A model generated the notes under the pieces. The model ran no database searches. It was given only the letters and a program-made list of their open reading frames with translations, and was not told the origin of the DNA. Positions 8,383 to 48,853 of a stretch of DNA of 50,056 bases are shown here, piece after piece. Position 1 is the stretch's first letter; each line of letters opens with the position of its first letter. Origin of the DNA: Candidatus Woesearchaeota archaeon (GTDB lineage Archaea; Nanobdellota; Nanobdellia; Woesearchaeales; WAPJ01); the NCBI GenBank assembly GCA_047602885.1, contig JBLKOQ010000005.1, positions 1 to 50,056 on the forward strand, given 5' to 3'. Made by a program: the position numbers and the translations under genes.

Positions 8383-9147
8383 ATGTTTATTCTAGATCCT
8401 AATCCTGTAGCGTTCTCGATATTCCAGTTTGACATTAGATGGTACGGTTTGTTCGCGGCTATCATGGCTCTTGTAGGATATTATCTAGCGCCTTATCTTG
8501 CGAGGAAGAGGTTTGGTGACAAGAGAGAATATATTTATCAGAATGCTATTCTAATAAGCGCTATTAGTGGTATTATTGGCGCGAGAATATTTCATGTTAT
8601 ATTAGAGTGGGAAAGGTATTCTGGAAATATTGGAGGCATGATGGCTGTATGGACGGGCGGACTGTCTTTTCATGGAGGATTATTGTTTGGACTGTTATCT
8701 CTAATTATTTATGCTCGTATTGTCAAGATTCCTTTCCAGCAGATTACTGATGTTATAGTAATACCTTTTGCACTTGCACTTTCTATAGGTAGGATAGGAA
8801 ATATTATGAACAGCGAAATACTTGGGAGGGCTTGTGATTCTTGCCTATTCTCTTTTACTTTTGCTGTTGATGGTGTTGAACGTTATCCTGTGCAGGCTGT
8901 GAGTATGCTAAAGAATTTGGCTGTAGCTTTCATCTCATATACTCTTCTTATGAGGACCAAAACAGCTGGGTTTTCCAGTGCTGCATTCCTGTTATCATAT
9001 TCTGTATTCAGGTTCTTTGTAGAGTTTATTAGGAACGAACCATACGTATTCTGGTATATCAGTCTTGGCCAGATAGTAACATTGCCTATTATTATTGTTA
9101 GTGCAGTATGGTTATGGCGGCTTATACGTTTAGAGAATGCTAAGTAA
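8383..9147 (+). CDS. lgt: Prolipoprotein diacylglyceryl transferase
   Basis: IRWYG, GARIFHV, GGLSFHGG, GRIGN..NSEILG, RFFVEFIR. Confidence 0.92.
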   Translation: MFILDPNPVAFSIFQFDIRWYGLFAAIMALVGYYLAPYLARKRFGDKREYIYQNAILISAISGIIGARIFHVILEWERYSGNIGGMMAVWTGGLSFHGGLLFGLLSLIIYARIVKIPFQQITDVIVIPFALALSIGRIGNIMNSEILGRACDSCLFSFTFAVDGVERYPVQAVSMLKNLAVAFISYTLLMRTKTAGFSSAAFLLSYSVFRFFVEFIRNEPYVFWYISLGQIVTLPIIIVSAVWLWRLIRLENAK

Positions 9148-9153
9148 TACTGA

Positions 9154-9780
9154 CTATGAGAATATGTAGTCGTCTATTAATGGGAGCCATAAACTGCCTT
9201 TGAATTGCATTATGGGATTGTTGTTGCCTTCCATTACCATTCGTATGAGCAAGTGCTTTTCTCCTACTGACAATACCATTATTCCAATATTTACTAGTTC
9301 CATTAGCCTCTTGTCGGTACTGCTTATGGTATTAAAACATATTATCCTGTCGTATGTCTTGCTAATATCTTTTAGTCTCCTATAATATTGTGGCGCTATA
9401 ATATTTAGTGTTCCTAGGTTGGCTGATGCTCTTTGTATATGTTCTATTCTTGGCTCTATAACATCTAGCTCTACTCCTATAGTGCTTAGTAGTGCTTCTT
9501 CATATCCTGTAATGCTTCCTATCTGGAGTACTTTTAGTTTTGTAGACAATGATGCCTCTACTAACAGTCTTATAGTCTTATAAGAATCTATTATTATGCT
9601 CTGATCATCTAATCTAATATCTTCCTGGGAGTAAGCCAGTTCTTTGTATCCTTCAGGAAGGAAATCCTCTCTTACTATTTTGAGAAATGCATTTACTACT
9701 AATTCATTCTTGATAATGCTCTCTTTTTTCCATAATTCTATTAGTTTCCTCCTGCTTTCTATACTATTATCATTTTTCAT
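9154..9780 (-). CDS. Protein-L-isoaspartate O-methyltransferase-like protein, degenerate
   Basis: VVNAFLKIVREDFLP..AY and KVLQIGSITGY; start reassigned to ATG 9780 because the longer ORF reads through the MITE. Confidence 0.7.
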   Translation of the reverse strand: MKNDNSIESRRKLIELWKKESIIKNELVVNAFLKIVREDFLPEGYKELAYSQEDIRLDDQSIIIDSYKTIRLLVEASLSTKLKVLQIGSITGYEEALLSTIGVELDVIEPRIEHIQRASANLGTLNIIAPQYYRRLKDISKTYDRIICFNTISSTDKRLMELVNIGIMVLSVGEKHLLIRMVMEGNNNPIMQFKGSLWLPLIDDYIFS

Positions 9781-43200: not shown

Positions 43201-43273
43201 GGGCCTGTGGTCTAGTGGTTATGACGCCACCTTGACGTGGTGGATGTCCCCAGTTCGAATCTGGGCAGGCCCA
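43201..43273 (+). tRNA. tRNA-Val(GAC)
   Basis: Acceptor GGGCCTG/CAGGCCC-A; CCACC-TTGACGT-GGTGG. Confidence 0.95.
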
Positions 43274-43281
43274 TCATAAAA

Positions 43282-44382
43282 ATGAAAGCACACCATATGA
43301 GCAAGAGCAAGATAGCACTATTAGTGTTGATCTTAGTTTCTAGTCTGGTAGCATTGCTTATGATAATGCCTTACATGCGTACAATTATTGCAGGGATAAC
43401 TGCAGGCTTCATATTCCTTCCATTGTACAAATTATTGAAGAGAATAGTAAGGTTTGAATGGATTGCCAGCATAATGGTACTTATAGTAATATTATTCTTT
43501 CTTGTAGTGCCTCTTGCAATTTCAGGCATACTCATTGCTCAAGAGCTTTCTACTCTTGCAGACCTCTCTTCAGGCCAAATAGAAGATATTCTTTCTGGGA
43601 TTGACGATATGAATATACCGTCATATATTGGTGGGATTGTCTCTCCAGAAGAGCTTCAGGATTATGTGGACAGGTCATTGTCTAATATGGCTTTTAGGTC
43701 CACTCAGTGGATTGAGAGGATGCTCGCAAACAGCCTTAATTTTTTCTTGTCATTCTTGGTCTTCACTTTCGTCACATACTATTATATGAAAGACCATAAC
43801 AAGATTAGCAGTAAGATTAGGGAAATAATCAAGTCTTTGTTTGACAGCAAGGATTCTGTGAGGATACAGCATTATCTTACTAAGGTCGGCTCTACTGTTA
43901 ACGCTGTTATTAGGGGTACTATTATTATGACTATTATACAGTCGGCACTGCTGATACCATTGTATTATGCGCTCGGACTCCAAACTCCATTGTTATGGAC
44001 TATACTAACTTTTTTCGTAGCACTCCTGCCAATGTTCGGCACTACTATTATATGGCTTCCTCTAACCGCTATTGTACTGGTAAGGGCTATCATGATGGGT
44101 GATGTTAGCATGATAATAATAGCCATAGTCGGTTTTGGATGGGGTACTTTTGTGGCTAATGTGGATAATGTGCTAAGGCCTACTATTATTGGTAAGCAGG
44201 GCAAGATTCACCCCTTGACCATTCTTATAGGGATTTTGGGAGGACTGAAGGTCTTTGGGTTTGCAGGTATATTTGTAGGACCTGTCATTCTTACGGCAGC
44301 ATTCCTGTTCATAGAGACATTTCTTATATCTGACGAAAAGAAGGATGCTGAGAATAATACAATAGATTTAAAAAAACAATGA
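43282..44382 (+). CDS. AI-2E family transporter
   Basis: PLY..L, LLPMFGT...P, DNVLRP..IG..IHPL..GILGG..FG..G...GP. Confidence 0.92.
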   Translation: MKAHHMSKSKIALLVLILVSSLVALLMIMPYMRTIIAGITAGFIFLPLYKLLKRIVRFEWIASIMVLIVILFFLVVPLAISGILIAQELSTLADLSSGQIEDILSGIDDMNIPSYIGGIVSPEELQDYVDRSLSNMAFRSTQWIERMLANSLNFFLSFLVFTFVTYYYMKDHNKISSKIREIIKSLFDSKDSVRIQHYLTKVGSTVNAVIRGTIIMTIIQSALLIPLYYALGLQTPLLWTILTFFVALLPMFGTTIIWLPLTAIVLVRAIMMGDVSMIIIAIVGFGWGTFVANVDNVLRPTIIGKQGKIHPLTILIGILGGLKVFGFAGIFVGPVILTAAFLFIETFLISDEKKDAENNTIDLKKQ

Positions 44383-44405
44383 ATTCTATTCTATTGTGAT
44401 GATTA

Positions 44406-45893
44406 ATGGAATTTCTTGTTAAGAAGACAGGATTCTCTTCTGGGGGTCCTAGGATAGTGTACATGAACAATAATGATGCTACTGCTCTTGGAGTCCATAA
44501 GGGCAATAGGATAATGCTATCATCAGGAAATTATAGCAGTGCTGTCGTGGTTGACATATCATATAATAACAGTATAAAAAGAGGCAGCCTCTCAGTTAAT
44601 GAAGAGGTTAGGAGAGCATTAGGGGATTCTAGGAAGGTCAAGGCTGAGCTCATAGGCAAGCCAATATCATTGTATTATATTAGGCAAAAGATTGAGGGCA
44701 AGGAGCTTAAAGAAAATGAGATAAGGAAGATTATCGAGGATATAGTAAGCCATACTATTATTGACTTTGAAATATCATTTTTTGTAGCTGCAGGTCATGT
44801 TCACGGATTTACTGATAACGAAACTATCGCATTAACCAAGGCAATGATATCCACTGGTGAAATATTACGATTCGGTAATACTATGATATATGATAAGCAT
44901 TGTACTGGAGGAGTTCCCAATAACAGGACTACTATGATCATGGTGCCTATACTTGCATCTCTGGGTCTTAAGATTCCTAAGACAAGTTCGAGGAGCATTA
45001 CGAGTCCTGCCGGTACTGCAGATACTATGGAGGTTCTTGCTAATGTCCACTTGTCAGCCCAGGATATAAAAAGAATAGTCGATAAAGAAAACGGGTGCAT
45101 AGCATGGGGGGGCTCTTTGAATCTTGCTCCTGCAGACGATGCGATTATTAATGTAGAGCATCCTCTAGGACTGGATGCGAGGGGACAGCTTATAGCTTCA
45201 GTGCTCGCCAAAAAAGCTTCAGTATCCTCAAAGAAAGTCCTTATAGATATTCCTATAGGCAAGAATACTAAATTTAAGACAAGGGCTCAGGGAAATGCGT
45301 TAAAGAAGAAGTTTGAGCTTGTAGGAAGGAAGATAGGCATGGATATTACTACCATTCTTACTGACGGGGAAGAGCCTATAGGACGAGGAATAGGACCTGC
45401 TCTGGAAGCAAGAGACGTATTATGGATTTTGGAGAATGATTCTAGAGCCCCTAAAGACCTTAAGGAAAAGAGTTGTATGATGGCAGGCATCCTTATAGAG
45501 ATGTCAGGAAAATCTCCTAAAGGAAAAGGAGTAGTTCTTGCCAGGAACATTATTGACTCTGGAGAGGCTTTGAAGAAGATGAAGAGTATTATCAAGGCTC
45601 AGGGTAAGAAGATAGATTGTTCTAAAGATATAAAGCTCGCAAAGTATTCTTATGACATAAGGGTTCCTAAGAAAGGACTGTTGAAAGGGTACCATACGAG
45701 TAAGCTTGCAGTCCTCTGCCACTTACTTGGCGCTCCACAGGATTCGAGAGCCGGAGCATATATCCATATAAGTCCCAACTCTATGGTCAAAAAGGGCGAT
45801 ATCATGATAACAGCTTATGCTGACAGCCTCGAAAAAATGAAGATGGCAAAGAGCTTTATCGACGAGCACCATAACACCATTCCAGAATATTAG
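44406..45893 (+). CDS. AMP phosphorylase / thymidine phosphorylase family
   Basis: DKHCTGGVPNNRTT, PKTSSRSITSPAGTADTME, GRGIGPALEA; N-terminal AMPpase-type extension. Confidence 0.92.
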   Translation: MEFLVKKTGFSSGGPRIVYMNNNDATALGVHKGNRIMLSSGNYSSAVVVDISYNNSIKRGSLSVNEEVRRALGDSRKVKAELIGKPISLYYIRQKIEGKELKENEIRKIIEDIVSHTIIDFEISFFVAAGHVHGFTDNETIALTKAMISTGEILRFGNTMIYDKHCTGGVPNNRTTMIMVPILASLGLKIPKTSSRSITSPAGTADTMEVLANVHLSAQDIKRIVDKENGCIAWGGSLNLAPADDAIINVEHPLGLDARGQLIASVLAKKASVSSKKVLIDIPIGKNTKFKTRAQGNALKKKFELVGRKIGMDITTILTDGEEPIGRGIGPALEARDVLWILENDSRAPKDLKEKSCMMAGILIEMSGKSPKGKGVVLARNIIDSGEALKKMKSIIKAQGKKIDCSKDIKLAKYSYDIRVPKKGLLKGYHTSKLAVLCHLLGAPQDSRAGAYIHISPNSMVKKGDIMITAYADSLEKMKMAKSFIDEHHNTIPEY

Positions 45894-45941
45894 AGTTTTT
45901 CAATAATAACATTTTTGGTCGTTGAAAGAACACTGTCCGTC

Positions 45942-46010
45942 TTATTTCTTCTTCTTGACAGGTTTCTTTGCAGCAGGTTTCTTTGCAGCAGCCTTCTTTT
46001 TTGCAGCCAT
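45942..46010 (-). CDS. 22-aa Lys/Ala-rich H1-like micropeptide MAAKKKAAAKKPAAKKPVKKKK
   Basis: Perfect SD GGAGGTGA 5 nt upstream of ATG; BRE/TATA (aaaaacttatataa) about 50 nt upstream. Confidence 0.75.
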   Translation of the reverse strand: MAAKKKAAAKKPAAKKPVKKKK

Positions 46011-46202
46011 ATCATTCACCTCCTGTCCTGATGTTTTGTAGGAACATGCGAATATTTTATTATATAAGTTTTTAAAACTTGTTATTCTTTGTTCTTTTTG
46101 GGATTGCCAACTATCATACTCCATTACTGCCCTGTCCATAAAACATTCGTCGGACAATAATAGAAAATTTTAAGAGTGCTCCGTAGTAATCCTCTAACAT
46201 AT

Positions 46203-46275
46203 AGCCCTGTGGTGTAGCGGCCTATCATCTCGGACTCTGGATCCGGGGACCCCGGTTCGAATCCGGGCAGGGCTA
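46203..46275 (+). tRNA. tRNA-Gln(CTG)
   Basis: Acceptor AGCCCTG/CAGGGCT-A; TCGGA-CTCTGGA-TCCGG; GGTTCGAATCC. Confidence 0.95.
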
Positions 46276-46473
46276 GATTCTATAACAAAATAATATGCCC
46301 AAATTCGAACACAACAAAAATCACAGATTTTTGAGGTTCGCCTTCATAGAAGCCGAACAATCCGGGCAGGGCTAGATTCTATAACAAAATAATATGCCCA
46401 GATTCGAACACAACAAAAATCACAGATTTTTGAGGTTTGCCTTCATAGAAGCCGAACAATCCGGGCAGGGCTA
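46260..46473 (+). repeat. tRNA-linked 99-bp tandem repeat (2 units, 3 copies of the tRNA 3' end)
   Basis: AATCCGGGCAGGGCTA at 46260, 46359 and 46458; the two units differ at 2 positions. Confidence 0.92.
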
Positions 46474-46623
46474 TAGCCCTTTTAGTAGAATAGCAGGATT
46501 TCCAAAACCCTATTTATAAAGCATGAAACATGTTTCTCTATAAAAGAATGTTTAAAAACCTAGACCAGAGCGTTTGTTTCATCAGCCTTATACAATGATA
46601 AACTGTTATATTCTTCTATGATA

Positions 46624-46660
46624 GCGCATAGCACACTTTTCAGACATTTTCTTCAGAGCC
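46624..46660 (+). mobile_element. Right-end remnant of the 134-bp MITE-like element
   Basis: GCGCATAGCACACTTTTCAGACATTTTCTTCAGAGCC matches the right ends of copies 2 and 3. Confidence 0.75.
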
Positions 46661-46841
46661 CATGTTTCACTACTTTATAATGACTATATAATTCCAAGTA
46701 AGAAAACTAAGATAAATAATACCTCAATAGCGTTGAGTCATTAGAATTCAAAGAATCAGTTTTTGCTTACTGAGACTGAGCAGAGCGAATTCATTTTGTA
46801 ATTATAGTAATCCTAATAAACACCCCATCTAATTTATTGTT

Positions 46842-47087
46842 ATGAGAAGAAAAGTATACGGTGAATCTAAGCAATCATTATGCTTTTTTTGTTCAAGGCA
46901 AGGACTATACAATAATGTTGAGGGTTTTCCCGTTTGCAAGGAGCATAAGGGCAATAGTGTTGGGAGTATGCGATGTATCTGCAATAGGTTATTGGATGTT
47001 AGGAAAGGAAGGTTTGGGAGTTTCTTCGTATGCGATTATTGTGGTCCTATGAGCTTAAGCAAGGTTTTGGAGATTAACAGGAAATGA
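46842..47087 (+). CDS. Small double zinc-finger protein
   Basis: CFFC..CKEH, CIC...GRFGSFFVCDYCG. Confidence 0.75.
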   Translation: MRRKVYGESKQSLCFFCSRQGLYNNVEGFPVCKEHKGNSVGSMRCICNRLLDVRKGRFGSFFVCDYCGPMSLSKVLEINRK

Positions 47088-47155
47088 TACATAACCACTA
47101 CCCGTTTATAAGCTAGTGTGGCAAAGCATTTTAACCCGTATAACTATCCCTTCTT

Positions 47156-47722
47156 ATGGCAGTAAAGGAAAAGAAACCAGAATCAGACTATAATGTTATG
47201 AATAAACATCATAGTGAAGAGCATCTTCTATTAGAAAGTTCTCTTGAGATGATAAGAGTTAATATTGGACTTGATAATAATATTAGGATTCTTCCTTACA
47301 GGATGTCTTTTGAGGGTATTGATGATTCATACTATTTGGGTATTATGGACTGGGAGCTTTCTAATAGGAAGCAGATGAGAGATCCTAAAGTCGACCCTCT
47401 AAGGGCATATTATGCTTTGGGCTCAGGATTAGTTATTCCAGAACTGGACCCTAGAAGGGTCTATGGAAGTCTGATAGGAAACAAGGCTCACACTCCTAAG
47501 AACCTTGTCAACAGGATAGTGAATGTGCCTTCCAATCTTTACGGCAATTATTCGAGGAGTCTAAGGCTACAGCTTGAGCCTTCAGAATCGTATCGTTTGG
47601 ATGTTCCTGAAGATATTACTAGTATTGTAAGGGGAGGAGCCCAGGTTAGTCTGGAAACTCTTAGTATAGAAGATGCTGTTAGGCTGGCAGAAGATTCTAT
47701 GCACGACTATAATTTTCATTAG
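47156..47722 (+). CDS. Hypothetical protein
   Basis: Open frame with host-like codon usage. Confidence 0.6.
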   Translation: MAVKEKKPESDYNVMNKHHSEEHLLLESSLEMIRVNIGLDNNIRILPYRMSFEGIDDSYYLGIMDWELSNRKQMRDPKVDPLRAYYALGSGLVIPELDPRRVYGSLIGNKAHTPKNLVNRIVNVPSNLYGNYSRSLRLQLEPSESYRLDVPEDITSIVRGGAQVSLETLSIEDAVRLAEDSMHDYNFH

Positions 47723-47818
47723 ATTACTACCTCTTCATAACTAATAAATTCATATTTTTGAGTAGGCATAATATTATTATACTATTCTCTAACTCCTCCT
47801 ATCAGTAAGGGGTTTATT

Positions 47819-48853
47819 ATGATTATAGGATTAACAGGATATATCGCTTCGGGTAAGGATGCCATGGCAAAATATTTGGAAGAAAAAAGCTTTATTCACA
47901 TATCACTCTCGGACATACTAAGAGAAGAGCTAAGAGTTCATGGCAAAGATATAACAAGGCATAATCTTGATGAGCTCGGAAGCAATCTTAGGGAACGTTT
48001 TGGTCCTGGAGTCCTTGCACAAAGAGTACTGGCAATGGTTGATGAGAATAAGGATTATGTTATATCAAGTATAGGGACTGTGGGAGAACTATTGGTTCTT
48101 AAGAAACACCCCAATTTTACGCTGGTATTTGTTGATGCTCCATTAAGGATTAGGTGGAATCGGCTTAAGATCAGGAATAGGGAGAAAGACCCTAAAACTT
48201 ACAAGGACTTCAAAACCATAGAATTAAGGCAATCCAAAGGAGGTGGAAAGCATTATAGAGCTTTTGATGATGTAAGAAAGATTGCTGACATTATTCTTGT
48301 TAATGACAAGTCATTAAAGAATGCTTATTCCAAGATGGACAGGATTATTAATGATATTAGGCATAAAAGACCTAGTTGGGACGACTATTTTATCAGTATT
48401 GTTAATGCCGTGGGGCTTAGGGGTACTTGTGATAGAGGTAAATCAGGAGCATTGTTTGTTAAGGACAATAGGATACTTGCGACTGGCTATGTTGGGAGCC
48501 CTTCGGGCCTTCCCCACTGTGATGATGTAGGCCATCTTTTTGATGAGGTATTATTGTATGATGGCAAGGTAAAGAGGCATTGTGTGAGGACTATTCATGC
48601 CGAGCAGAATGCTATTGCCCAGGCTGCAAGGCACGGAGTTCCTATTGATGGTAGTACTTGTTATGTGACTATGGAGCCATGCTATACTTGTGCTAAGATG
48701 CTTATCAATGCAGGTGTTGTTAGAGTGGTAGCTTCTAAAAGGTATCATGCTGCCCATCGTTCTCGAGAGATTTTTAGGCAGGCAGGAGTAATGCTTGATA
48801 TAGTGCATGACGAGATATTGTGGTATCCTGACCAGGAGCGAAATACCAAATAA
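47819..48853 (+). CDS. Fusion of a P-loop nucleotide kinase (dephospho-CoA-kinase-like) and dCMP deaminase
   Basis: GLTGYIASGK; RPSWDDYF, HAEQNA, PCYTC. Confidence 0.9.
   Translation: MIIGLTGYIASGKDAMAKYLEEKSFIHISLSDILREELRVHGKDITRHNLDELGSNLRERFGPGVLAQRVLAMVDENKDYVISSIGTVGELLVLKKHPNFTLVFVDAPLRIRWNRLKIRNREKDPKTYKDFKTIELRQSKGGGKHYRAFDDVRKIADIILVNDKSLKNAYSKMDRIINDIRHKRPSWDDYFISIVNAVGLRGTCDRGKSGALFVKDNRILATGYVGSPSGLPHCDDVGHLFDEVLLYDGKVKRHCVRTIHAEQNAIAQAARHGVPIDGSTCYVTMEPCYTCAKMLINAGVVRVVASKRYHAAHRSREIFRQAGVMLDIVHDEILWYPDQERNTK

What the first reader, a model, noticed from the sequence alone, without database searches (positions are those of the whole stretch)
46255..46480. tRNA-Gln-linked 99-bp repeats carrying both sense and antisense copies of the tRNA 3' end
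Seen: each unit ends with the last 16 nt of tRNA-Gln. It also contains TGCCCA(A/G)ATTCGAAC (46296-46310, 46395-46409), a 13/15 and 14/15 reverse complement of the tRNA segment GTTCGAATCCGGGCA. Between these lie hairpins CAAAAATC-ACA-GATTTTTG and GTTCG..CTTC-ATA-GAAG..CGAAC, so a unit can fold into a branched structure. The array ends in the palindrome AGGGCTATAGCCCT. Known: tRNA 3'-end duplications mark integrase att sites, and E. coli tyrT has tandem repeats containing the tRNA 3' end. No integrase is in the window, and a built-in antisense copy is not explained by att duplication. Inference: a minimal tRNA-targeting element that encodes target complementarity, or a trailer that can invade the T-arm and modulate pre-tRNA processing.
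Basis: partly seen in the sequence, partly recalled or inferred. Interest (0 to 1): 0.7.

Follow-up and report, generated by a model that had tools for sequence, protein, structure and literature searches.

The report
Hairpin insertion modules behind tRNA genes
The two 99-base repeats after this archaeal glutamine tRNA gene are copies of a small gene-less hairpin element that recurs behind many tRNA genes in related tiny archaea, always joined to the tRNA copy at the same base and carrying a stretch complementary to it.

Summary
tRNA-Gln(CTG) (46203-46275) is followed by two 99-nt units with 2 differences. Each unit has a spacer, an antisense copy (a') of tRNA positions 53-67, two hairpins and a 16-nt direct copy (a) of positions 58-73.

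It is neither chance nor an assembly artefact. It is also not unique. A second module lies beside a tRNA-Leu in this genome. A family relative has the same layout at tRNA-Gln with unrelated inner sequence.

A T-loop/anti-T-loop pattern hits 69 loci in 35 of 251 genomes of the order, against 0 for the reversed control. In 17 of 30 loci inspected the tRNA copy restarts, mostly exactly at A58. a' co-varies with the host tRNA, and the hairpins show compensatory changes. Within single genomes one core sits behind several tRNAs, each with that tRNA's own end.

No integrase or cargo lies nearby. A splicing (BHB) intron is not supported. The presence of Y1 transposase, reverse transcriptase, Cas1, serine or IS110 enzymes does not track the modules.

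Best reading: a member of an apparently undescribed family of non-autonomous, T-loop-anchored DNA modules, amplified here in tandem. The catalyst is unknown.

This scan noted look-alikes before, on other Woesearchaeota and on Patescibacteria DNA.

The parts
46203..46275 (+). tRNA-Gln(CTG), complete, with no encoded CCA. The T-arm and acceptor 3' strand GTTCGAATCCGGGCAGGGCTA are positions 53-73.
   Evidence: ARAGORN and Rfam tRNA at 54.2 bits
46260..46275 (+). a, copy 1: tRNA positions 58-73 inside the gene. This is the first direct repeat.
46276..46295 (+). Unit 1 spacer GATTCTATAACAAAATAATA. It contains no T-run.
46296..46310 (+). Unit 1 a': the reverse complement of tRNA positions 53-67, matching 13 of 15.
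46315..46333 (+). Unit 1 hairpin A (8 bp, loop ACA). It belongs to a hairpin repeat dispersed across the order.
46336..46358 (+). Unit 1 hairpin B (5 bp, a 1x1 mismatch, 4 bp, loop ATA). Its 3' foot abuts the junction with a.
   Evidence: The relative G003 has the same shape with different sequence.
46359..46374 (+). a, copy 2: the direct copy of tRNA positions 58-73 that ends unit 1.
46375..46457 (+). Unit 2: spacer, a' (46395-46409), hairpin A (46414-46432) and hairpin B (46435-46457). Its a' matches tRNA-Gln at 14 of 15 and tRNA-Val(GAC) 43253-43267 at 15 of 15.
46458..46473 (+). a, copy 3: the last direct copy, followed by the presumed original 3' flank.
46467..46485 (+). Palindrome AGGGCTATAGCCCT plus TTTT. 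This is a terminator-like hairpin built on the last a copy. That reading is inferred.
43253..43267 (+). The T-loop and T-stem segment of tRNA-Val(GAC). It is the exact complement of the unit 2 a'.

Best explanation
The array is two tandem copies of a gene-less, hairpin-folded DNA module. The module belongs to a family that is widespread in this order of Woesearchaeota-type DPANN archaea.

A module sits in the 3' flank of a tRNA gene and has a fixed order of parts:
- the tRNA;
- a short spacer, often T-rich;
- a', the complement of the T-loop and the T-stem 3' strand (position 53 to about 65);
- two hairpins;
- a direct copy of the tRNA that restarts at A58 and often runs on into the local 3' flank.

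Shown here: the architecture; the fixed 57|58 junction; the co-variation of a' and a with the host tRNA; the conserved three-way fold (stem a':a plus two hairpins); multi-copy cores within genomes; frequent tandem arrays; and the lack of cargo genes.

Inferred: the module is a non-autonomous mobile or duplicative element that homes to the T-loop of tRNA genes as folded single-stranded DNA. In this picture a' pairs with the T-loop region and lines up the join GTTCR|AATCC, acting as a splint or an inverse core site. A host enzyme would do the joining, most plausibly a Xer-like tyrosine recombinase, in the manner of integron attC sites or CTX-phi. Replication template switching is the alternative. 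The second 99-nt copy arose by unequal exchange or slippage between the 16-nt repeats. The tRNA stays intact, so the module is probably neutral or selfish.
For: In this genome, a second module shares a 28-nt stretch (96% identical) with hairpin A. It lies next to an intron-bearing tRNA-Leu on C35, with an 11/11 a' and a decayed a.

In G003 (same family), tRNA-Gln(CTG) has a 12/12 a', a 16/16 a restarting at A58, and a hairpin of the same shape (5 bp, 1x1, 4 bp, triloop) with unrelated sequence.

The pattern TTCRAATCC-N15-45-GGATTYGAA hits 69 loci in 35 of 251 genomes of the order. The reversed control gives 0 everywhere.
- Of 30 loci fetched, 28 sit at a T-arm. 17 hold a copy of a (at least 12/16, shuffle p at most 0.01) 81-188 nt on.
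- 10 of 19 further hits do as well.
- Identity starts exactly at A58 in 13 of 17 modules, and ends anywhere from before position 73 (decayed copies) to 20 nt past it, apart from tandem arrays.

a' co-varies with its tRNA.

The same core is found behind Glu, Ile, Asp and Val tRNAs in G141. The same holds for three tRNAs in G003 and many in G129 and G205. Each copy carries the local tRNA's own a.

A fold of 8 modules gives 93.3% of cells paired against 24-47% for slid controls. The covariation score is 0.368 against 0.137 +/- 0.033 (0 of 500 shuffles reach it). All 5 pairs of hairpin 2 show compensatory changes.

Tandem arrays occur in at least 8 loci.

0 of 39 neighbouring ORFs is an integrase or transposase.

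The tandem copies are confirmed in contigs of public runs.
Against: No catalyst was identified. Xer-like recombinases occur in genomes with and without modules alike.

No excised form, empty site or copy-number variant was seen. One search found nothing, the congeners were too diverged, and one search showed no joints.

If a travels with the element, a jump to a new tRNA should make a chimeric tRNA. None was seen. The identical proximal and distal copies, flank included, therefore need either a target duplication of variable length (16-46 nt) or later gene conversion. Neither is known for tyrosine recombinases.

In G141 one a' mismatches its tRNA at position 57, so complementarity is not strictly required.

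The covariation does not tell RNA folding from single-stranded DNA folding. The structure tested was also derived from the same sequences.
Confidence: 0.6

Rival explanations
1. Classic att scars. These would be leftovers of integrase-borne elements (viruses, plasmids, CIME-like remnants) that integrated at the tRNA 3' end and then lost their genes. The 99-nt unit would later have been duplicated.
For: Direct repeats of a tRNA 3' end that start in the T-loop are what T-loop-crossing integrases leave. That statement is recalled from Williams 2002; the paper is not held. The genome has true scars with cargo: tRNA-Lys on C33 has a 62-nt copy 2 kb on, around a 641-aa ORF, and tRNA-Glu on C20 has a copy 1.1 kb on. 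In G053, tRNA-Gln has plain 55-nt and 14-nt copies.
Against: 0 of 39 ORFs beside 30 modules is an integrase. Module sizes are uniform at 81-188 nt, with a conserved fold and compensatory changes. One core recurs behind different tRNAs, each time with that tRNA's own end. The co-varying antisense arm has no role in att duplication.
Confidence: 0.12
2. Functional RNA. The units would be part of the pre-tRNA-Gln trailer, and a' would pair with the T-arm or with the downstream copy to control folding, 3' processing or termination.
For: In this locus no T-run separates the tRNA from a'. The 279-nt transcript folds well (-88.6 kcal/mol, z -4.07), with a' paired to the T-arm in the predicted structure. 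The hairpins show compensatory changes. The one change in hairpin B keeps a G-U pair.
Against: A run of 5 or more T lies between the tRNA and a' in 8 of 28 loci, and of 4 or more in 15 of 28. Only 2 of 38 tRNAs scored in this genome carry a module. The tRNA-Gln of relative G001 has none before the next tRNA. The core sequence turns over between congeners. Rfam finds nothing but the tRNA. No RNA contig covered the units, but this is no evidence either way.
Confidence: 0.12
3. Local by-product of replication or repair at the near-palindromic T-loop (TTCGAA). Template switching and slippage would create the inverted and direct copies in place, and dispersed hairpin repeats would be captured as filler. 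No dedicated mobility would be involved.
For: No enzyme family tracks the modules. The right edge of the duplication varies, as after microhomology-mediated switches. Hairpin A is a generic dispersed repeat. Tandem arrays are common.
Against: The nucleotide-exact left junction recurs in 13 of 17 modules with unrelated cores. The order of parts is fixed. The three-way fold is conserved with compensatory changes. The feature is enriched in one order (17 of 116 genomes) against 1 of 35 in the sister orders, although all share the same T-loop.
Confidence: 0.1
4. T-loop intron with a duplicated 3' exon. Everything between G57 and the downstream A58 would be removed by the archaeal splicing endonuclease.
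For: Splicing between equivalent positions of two copies would restore the tRNA. The same hairpins occur inside tRNA genes elsewhere (L032).
Against: For this locus and for G003, the best bulge-helix-bulge candidate has flanking helices of 1 bp each, and its central helix is CCGG paired with itself. The 4 of 17 modules that pass a minimal test do so at inconsistent positions. True introns of this genome score flanking helices of 7 bp with the same script. The tRNA is complete without splicing.
Confidence: 0.05

Closest known systems
Integron attC sites and CTX-phi type IMEX elements (folded single-stranded att sites recombined by tyrosine recombinases); recalled knowledge
   Same: An inverse copy and a direct copy of the target core pair to form a stem, with variable hairpins at the top. 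The junction falls at a fixed base at the foot of the stem. Units stack in arrays, each ending with the shared core. The element itself encodes no recombinase.
   Different: The target is the T-loop of tRNA genes rather than attI or dif. The units carry no gene. The local target is duplicated over 16-46 nt. No IntI was looked for, and Xer-like genes show no association with the modules. No recombination has been demonstrated.
IS200/IS605-derived PATEs and REP/BIME elements moved by Y1 (RAYT) transposases; recalled knowledge, also raised in earlier notes of this scan
   Same: They are small, gene-less, hairpin-rich and multi-copy. A short sequence 5' of a hairpin foot (CGAAC) is complementary to the pentanucleotide before the junction (GTTCG), like a guide and its cleavage site. 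The junction follows a fixed short motif.
   Different: Y1_Tnp is absent from this genome (91.8% complete). It is found in 14 of 35 module-bearing genomes against 73 of 216 others. Those elements make no target duplication and are not tied to tRNA ends.
CIMEs and att-site accretion at tRNA genes (integrase-less remnants flanked by att repeats); recalled knowledge
   Same: Direct repeats of the tRNA 3' end, tandem stacking behind the tRNA, and no integrase inside.
   Different: Modules here are about 100 nt, carry a conserved fold and an antisense arm, and the same core serves different tRNAs.
E. coli tyrT 178-bp repeats / RtT RNA
   Same: Tandem repeats after a tRNA gene that each contain the tRNA 3' end.
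   Different: There is no Rfam RtT match. The organism is archaeal and the sequences are unrelated. The antisense arm and the fixed A58 restart are not features recalled for tyrT.
Casposons at tRNA 3' ends (Cas1 integrase, 14-15-bp target duplication); seen only in the search listing and abstracts of PMC4046053 and PMC4779613, the rest recalled
   Same: They insert at the 3' part of tRNA genes, duplicate the target, and can occur in tandem.
   Different: Cas1 was found in 0 of 5 module-rich genomes. The duplication length here varies, and the modules carry no genes.

Membership tests
Integrase att duplication / CIME | Direct repeat of the tRNA 3' part flanking the inserted DNA | tested here: met
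   Three exact 16-nt copies
Integrase att duplication / CIME | Integrase, or remnants of element genes, between or beside the repeats, or a full-length relative with the same ends | tested here: not met
   0 of 39 ORFs beside 30 modules. None lies in the window. The units are 83 nt plus the repeat.
Archaeal BHB tRNA intron | A bulge-helix-bulge motif at both splice sites | tested here: not met
   The flanking helices are 1 bp here and in G003. True introns of this genome give 7 bp.
Archaeal BHB tRNA intron | It interrupts the tRNA gene | tested here: not met
   The tRNA is complete at 46203-46275.
IS200/IS605 PATE or REP/RAYT | Hairpins near both ends, multi-copy | tested here: met
IS200/IS605 PATE or REP/RAYT | A Y1 transposase or RAYT in the genome or tracking the repeats | tested here: not met
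   0 matches in G000. 14 of 35 module-bearing genomes against 73 of 216 others.
IS200/IS605 PATE or REP/RAYT | Insertion 3' of a fixed tetra- or pentanucleotide, without target duplication | tested here: inconclusive
   The junction follows GTTCR in 13 of 17 modules, but a 16-46-nt duplication is present.
MITE of a DDE transposon | Terminal inverted repeats and a target duplication of fixed length | tested here: not met
   The arms a' and a are inverted, but a is target-derived. Duplication length varies, with identity ending between 12 nt short of and 20 nt past position 73, and further in arrays.
Folded single-stranded att site (attC / CTX-phi type) | Inverse and direct core copies that pair, with a conserved fold and variable sequence | tested here: met
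   The stem GGATT:AATCC is invariant. Both hairpins covary, with 0 of 500 shuffles reaching the score.
Folded single-stranded att site (attC / CTX-phi type) | Recombination by a tyrosine recombinase on the folded strand | not testable with these tools
   Xer-like genes are present in G000 (C1:38740-39552 and C40:503-1348). They also occur in module-free genomes.
RtT / tyrT repeats | A match to the Rfam RtT family | tested here: not met
   Only tRNA was found in 44000-48500 at E up to 1.

The most novel reading that the evidence does not exclude
This would be a new class of protein-less mobile DNA that homes to tRNA genes through a built-in guide. The arm a' base-pairs with the T-loop strand and splints the target's G57 end against the element's A58 end. 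A common host enzyme could then join them. The result is a tRNA-specific duplication and stackable units. If the earlier notes of this scan hold, the same design is used in ultra-small bacteria (Patescibacteria) as well.
Probability: 0.25. Interest if true: 0.85.

Novelty: new variant of a known kind. Interest (0 to 1): 0.7.

Why it matters
If the family is mobile, it is a very small element (about 80-120 nt) whose target choice seems to be written in a short complementary arm next to a hairpin. That principle is otherwise known only from IS200/IS605 guides, integron attC sites and bridge-RNA transposons. Here it is aimed at the most conserved 10 bases of every tRNA gene.

It would explain a common but unannotated feature of DPANN genomes: tRNA 3'-end fragments, antisense T-loops and tandem arrays behind tRNA genes. 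It also warns annotators that such fragments are not always phage scars, and it offers a simple system for studying target-guided DNA insertion.

Four literature searches turned up no description. The passages read in PMC9897764 and in the Nanobdellota preprint do not mention it. Subscription journals and supplements were not seen.

Tried and rejected
- **Assembly artefact:** rejected.
- **Chance:** rejected.
- **Rfam family:** none but tRNA.
- **BHB intron:** rejected for this locus.
- **Large integrated element with a' as its left end:** rejected. 0 of 39 ORFs are integrases, and the neighbours are housekeeping genes.
- **Candidate drivers in five module-rich genomes (G000, G003, G141, G129, G205):**
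  - RVT_1: 1 of 5.
  - Resolvase: 0 of 5.
  - IS110 Transposase_20: 0 of 5.
  - Cas1: 0 of 5.
  - Y1_Tnp: 2 of 5, with no association across 251 genomes.
  - Phage_integrase: 4 of 5, but also 5 of 5 module-free complete genomes, so it tells nothing.
- **Viral contigs:** the T-loop/anti-T-loop pattern gave 8 loci, none DPANN-like.
- **Empty-site or right-junction pattern in metagenome contigs:** 0 hits.
- **Hairpin A pattern in genome and metagenome contigs:** 11 and 18 loci. Most are free-standing hairpin clusters, not tRNA modules.
- **Orthologous loci in congeners for an empty-versus-filled comparison:** too diverged.
- **tRNA-Gln tail in 401 genomes:** only G000 and G053 have multiple copies.
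- **The a of the orphan module in G141:** it matches no tRNA of that assembly, so the result is inconclusive.
- **RNA run X9:** it covers only 45996-46181. The lack of cover over the units means nothing.
- **RT stop at m1A58 as the origin of the A58 boundary:** considered and dropped. It predicts a start at 59 and copies carrying CCA, and reverse transcriptase is mostly missing.

Full report
**What is there.** The window is contig C16 of a 1.07-Mb, 47-contig archaeal assembly that is 91.8% complete. tRNA-Gln(CTG) lies at 46203-46275. It is followed by two 99-nt units (TRF: period 99, 2.2 copies, 98% matches). The units differ at only two bases, 46302 A versus 46401 G and 46339 C versus 46438 T.

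Each unit has, in order:
- a 20-nt spacer;
- an arm I call a' (TGCCCARATTCGAAC), the reverse complement of tRNA positions 53-67, matching 13/15 in unit 1 and 14/15 in unit 2;
- hairpin A, of 8 bp;
- hairpin B (5 bp, one mismatch, 4 bp, triloop);
- a 16-nt direct copy (a) of tRNA positions 58-73.

After the third a comes a short palindrome plus TTTT.

**Not chance, not an artefact.** I scored 38 tRNAs of the genome in the same way. Only tRNA-Gln (13/15; 0 of 300 shuffles as good; sense copy 16/16) and a tRNA-Leu on contig C35 (12/15; sense copy 13/16) stand out.

Contigs of public lake-water metagenome runs from two studies hold the collapsed unit at about twice the flank depth. They also hold a separate contig across the unit-to-unit junction. 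One run has C at 46438, so the two units are even more alike in that population.

**Organism.** Earlier notes of this scan call the genome Woesearchaeota. I checked this indirectly. A locus of genome G056, placed in the same order by the genome search, is identical over 824 of 824 bases to a record titled Candidatus Woesearchaeota archaeon.

**The same thing elsewhere.** On C35 a module shares 28 nt (96% identical) with hairpin A plus a second GTTCAA...TTGAAC hairpin. It lies beside an intron-bearing tRNA-Leu that ARAGORN and the Rfam tRNA model missed. It has an 11/11 a' and a decayed a, and its inner part is inverted relative to the Gln module.

In G003 (same family, other genus), tRNA-Gln(CTG) is followed by a spacer, a 12/12 a', 46 nt of unrelated GC-rich sequence, and a 16/16 a restarting at A58. 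Then the spacer and a' come again. Its second hairpin has the same shape as hairpin B here.

G001 has no module before the next tRNA. In G002 only 78 nt are available before the contig ends.

G056 has two units behind tRNA-Val(GAC).

**An order-wide family.** The pattern TTCRAATCC-N15-45-GGATTYGAA (a T-loop, then its complement) hits 69 loci in 35 of 251 genomes of the order. The reversed control gives 0 in every genome. In a phylum sample it hits 17 of 116 genomes of the order, but only 1 of 35 from sister orders.
- Of 30 loci fetched, 28 begin at a real T-arm. 17 have a copy of a (at least 12/16, shuffle p at most 0.01) 81-188 nt downstream.
- Of 19 further hits in four module-rich genomes, 10 have one as well.
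- Among the 17 modules, identity with the tRNA starts exactly at A58 in 13. It starts 1 nt earlier in 2, 2 nt earlier in 1, and 6 nt earlier in 1. In decayed copies identity breaks off up to 12 nt before position 73; otherwise it runs 0 to 20 nt past it, or on into the next unit in arrays.
- Tandem arrays occur in at least 8 loci.
- The strict pattern misses imperfect cases such as the Gln module here, so these counts are lower bounds.

**Co-variation.** In 28 loci the bases next to the fixed part of a' match the locus's own tRNA.
- Position 63 matches in 17 (7.4 expected from other loci).
- Position 64 matches in 10 (5.7 expected).
- The summed extension is 28 against 9.3 +/- 3.1, and 0 of 5000 permutations reach it.
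- The purine at position 57 agrees in 26 of 28.
- Where the T-stem has G-U pairs, a' follows the 3' strand, so it is truly antisense.

The match is not perfect, however. In G141 one a' disagrees with its tRNA at position 57. Here the unit 2 a' is 15/15 to tRNA-Val(GAC) in the same window, but 14/15 to tRNA-Gln. This suggests that a' travels with the element and is only partly adapted to its host.

**Multi-copy cores with local ends.** In G141 one 45-nt core sits behind tRNA-Glu, tRNA-Ile, tRNA-Asp (two tandem units) and tRNA-Val, plus one orphan copy. Each carries that tRNA's own a. At tRNA-Ile the duplication runs 29 nt, into the local flank.

The same holds for a core at three tRNAs in G003, and for two related cores at many tRNAs in G129 and G205.

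Congeners G213 and G009 carry a different core at the orthologous tRNA-Glu. Cores therefore spread and are replaced, while the ends are made from, or matched to, the target.

Hairpin A is itself a dispersed hairpin repeat of these archaea. It occurs free in intergenic clusters and inside insertions in tRNA genes.

**Fold.** The unit folds better than shuffles (z -3.0). An alignment of 8 modules from G129 and G205 gives a three-way junction. Its closing stem is GGATT:AATCC, that is a' paired with a. Hairpin 1 follows, and the foot of hairpin 2 abuts the 57|58 junction.
- 93.3% of cells are paired, against 24-47% when partners are slid.
- The covariation score is 0.368 against 0.137 +/- 0.033, and 0 of 500 shuffles reach it.
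- All 5 pairs of hairpin 2 show changes on both sides.

The structure was derived from the same sequences, which favours it. The test also cannot tell RNA from single-stranded DNA.

**What it is not.**
- No integrase or transposase lies nearby: 0 of 39 ORFs, and the neighbours are housekeeping genes.
- A splicing intron is not supported. The best bulge-helix-bulge candidate here has 1-bp flanking helices, while true introns of the genome score 7.
- Of the enzyme families tested in five module-rich genomes, only Xer-like tyrosine recombinases are common (4 of 5). They are equally present in five module-free genomes.
- Y1 transposases occur in 14 of 35 module-bearing genomes and in 73 of 216 others.

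**How it most likely works.**

Shown:
- a gene-less module with a fixed order of parts, a nucleotide-exact junction after position 57, target-matched arms and a conserved fold;
- spread of the same core within genomes, and tandem amplification.

Inferred:
- The module moves or is copied as folded single-stranded DNA.
- The arm a' pairs with the T-loop region. Its 3' half, CGAAC, is complementary to GTTCG (positions 53-57), and its 5' half to AATCC... (position 58 onward). It could therefore hold the target end and the element end side by side at 57|58.
- A host enzyme, perhaps a Xer-like recombinase acting as on attC or CTX-phi sites, or replication template switching, would complete the join.
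- The two copies here arose by unequal exchange between the 16-nt repeats.

The main unsolved point is how the proximal and distal copies of a, flank included, come to be identical at new tRNAs. That needs either a long target duplication of variable length or gene conversion.

The RNA-trailer reading is weaker. T-runs often precede a' (8 of 28 loci with T5 or more), and occurrence is patchy. It is not excluded for this locus, which has no such run.

**Prior art.** Four searches of the held library gave no description of such modules. I read passages of PMC9897764, which mentions only att fragments and has no occurrence of inverted, antisense or hairpin. I also read passages of a Nanobdellota preprint. 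Williams 2002 is not held and is cited from memory.

Earlier notes of this scan describe look-alikes in Woesearchaeota and Patescibacteria. I did not test the bacterial cases.

Noticed in passing
window 43253-43267 and 46395-46409: The antisense arm of unit 2 is a perfect 15/15 complement of tRNA-Val(GAC), 3 kb upstream, but only 14/15 to the adjacent tRNA-Gln. This hints that the element once sat at a Val-type tRNA.
   Followed up: partly
window 45942-46015 (-) and 45959-45999: A tiny lysine/alanine-rich ORF on the minus strand holds a 15-nt tandem repeat (2.7 copies). The only RNA contig laid (run X9) covers 45996-46181, which is that ORF's start and the region upstream of the tRNA.
   Followed up: no
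G000 contig C9 about 8780-8920 and 9165-9300; C40 flanks of 503-1348 (outside the window): A GC-rich repeat of about 140 nt flanks the intron-bearing tRNA-Gln(TTG), and also flanks one of the two Xer-like recombinase genes.
   Followed up: partly
G000 C33:7208-9385 and C20:27850-29095 (outside the window): These are classic att-type duplications. tRNA-Lys(CTT) has a 62-nt copy 2 kb on, around a 641-aa ORF. tRNA-Glu(CTC) has a copy of about 52 nt 1.1 kb on, around ORFs of 195 and 181 aa.
   Followed up: partly
L032 (= L115), L029, L114: The same hairpin A, with a second hairpin, lies inside tRNA genes. One case is in the D-loop of a tRNA-Glu(CTC) of a Nanoarchaeota MAG. No clear bulge-helix-bulge motif restores the tRNA, so it is either an odd intron or a disrupting insertion.
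   Followed up: partly
L034, L037, L038, L100-L117: Hairpin A belongs to clusters of different hairpins joined by recurring linkers (..ACTTAC - hairpin - GAAGTTC - hairpin - GTAAC..). These are spread through intergenic DNA of these archaea and resemble REP/BIME arrays.
   Followed up: no
L049 (G003:C18), reverse strand positions 207-683: A 158-aa ORF convergent with tRNA-Gln ends inside the second a' copy, so its last five codons are encoded by the antisense T-loop segment.
   Followed up: no
L068 (G092:C2:68741-68991): A 94-nt tandem array in which each unit repeats the whole T-loop and the 3' end plus an a'. This is a variant with an earlier left boundary (6 nt before A58).
   Followed up: no
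L021 (G053:C150): tRNA-Gln(CTG) is followed by plain 55-nt and 14-nt copies of its 3' end, with no antisense arm or hairpins. tRNA-Gln is thus also an ordinary integration hot spot in this order.
   Followed up: no
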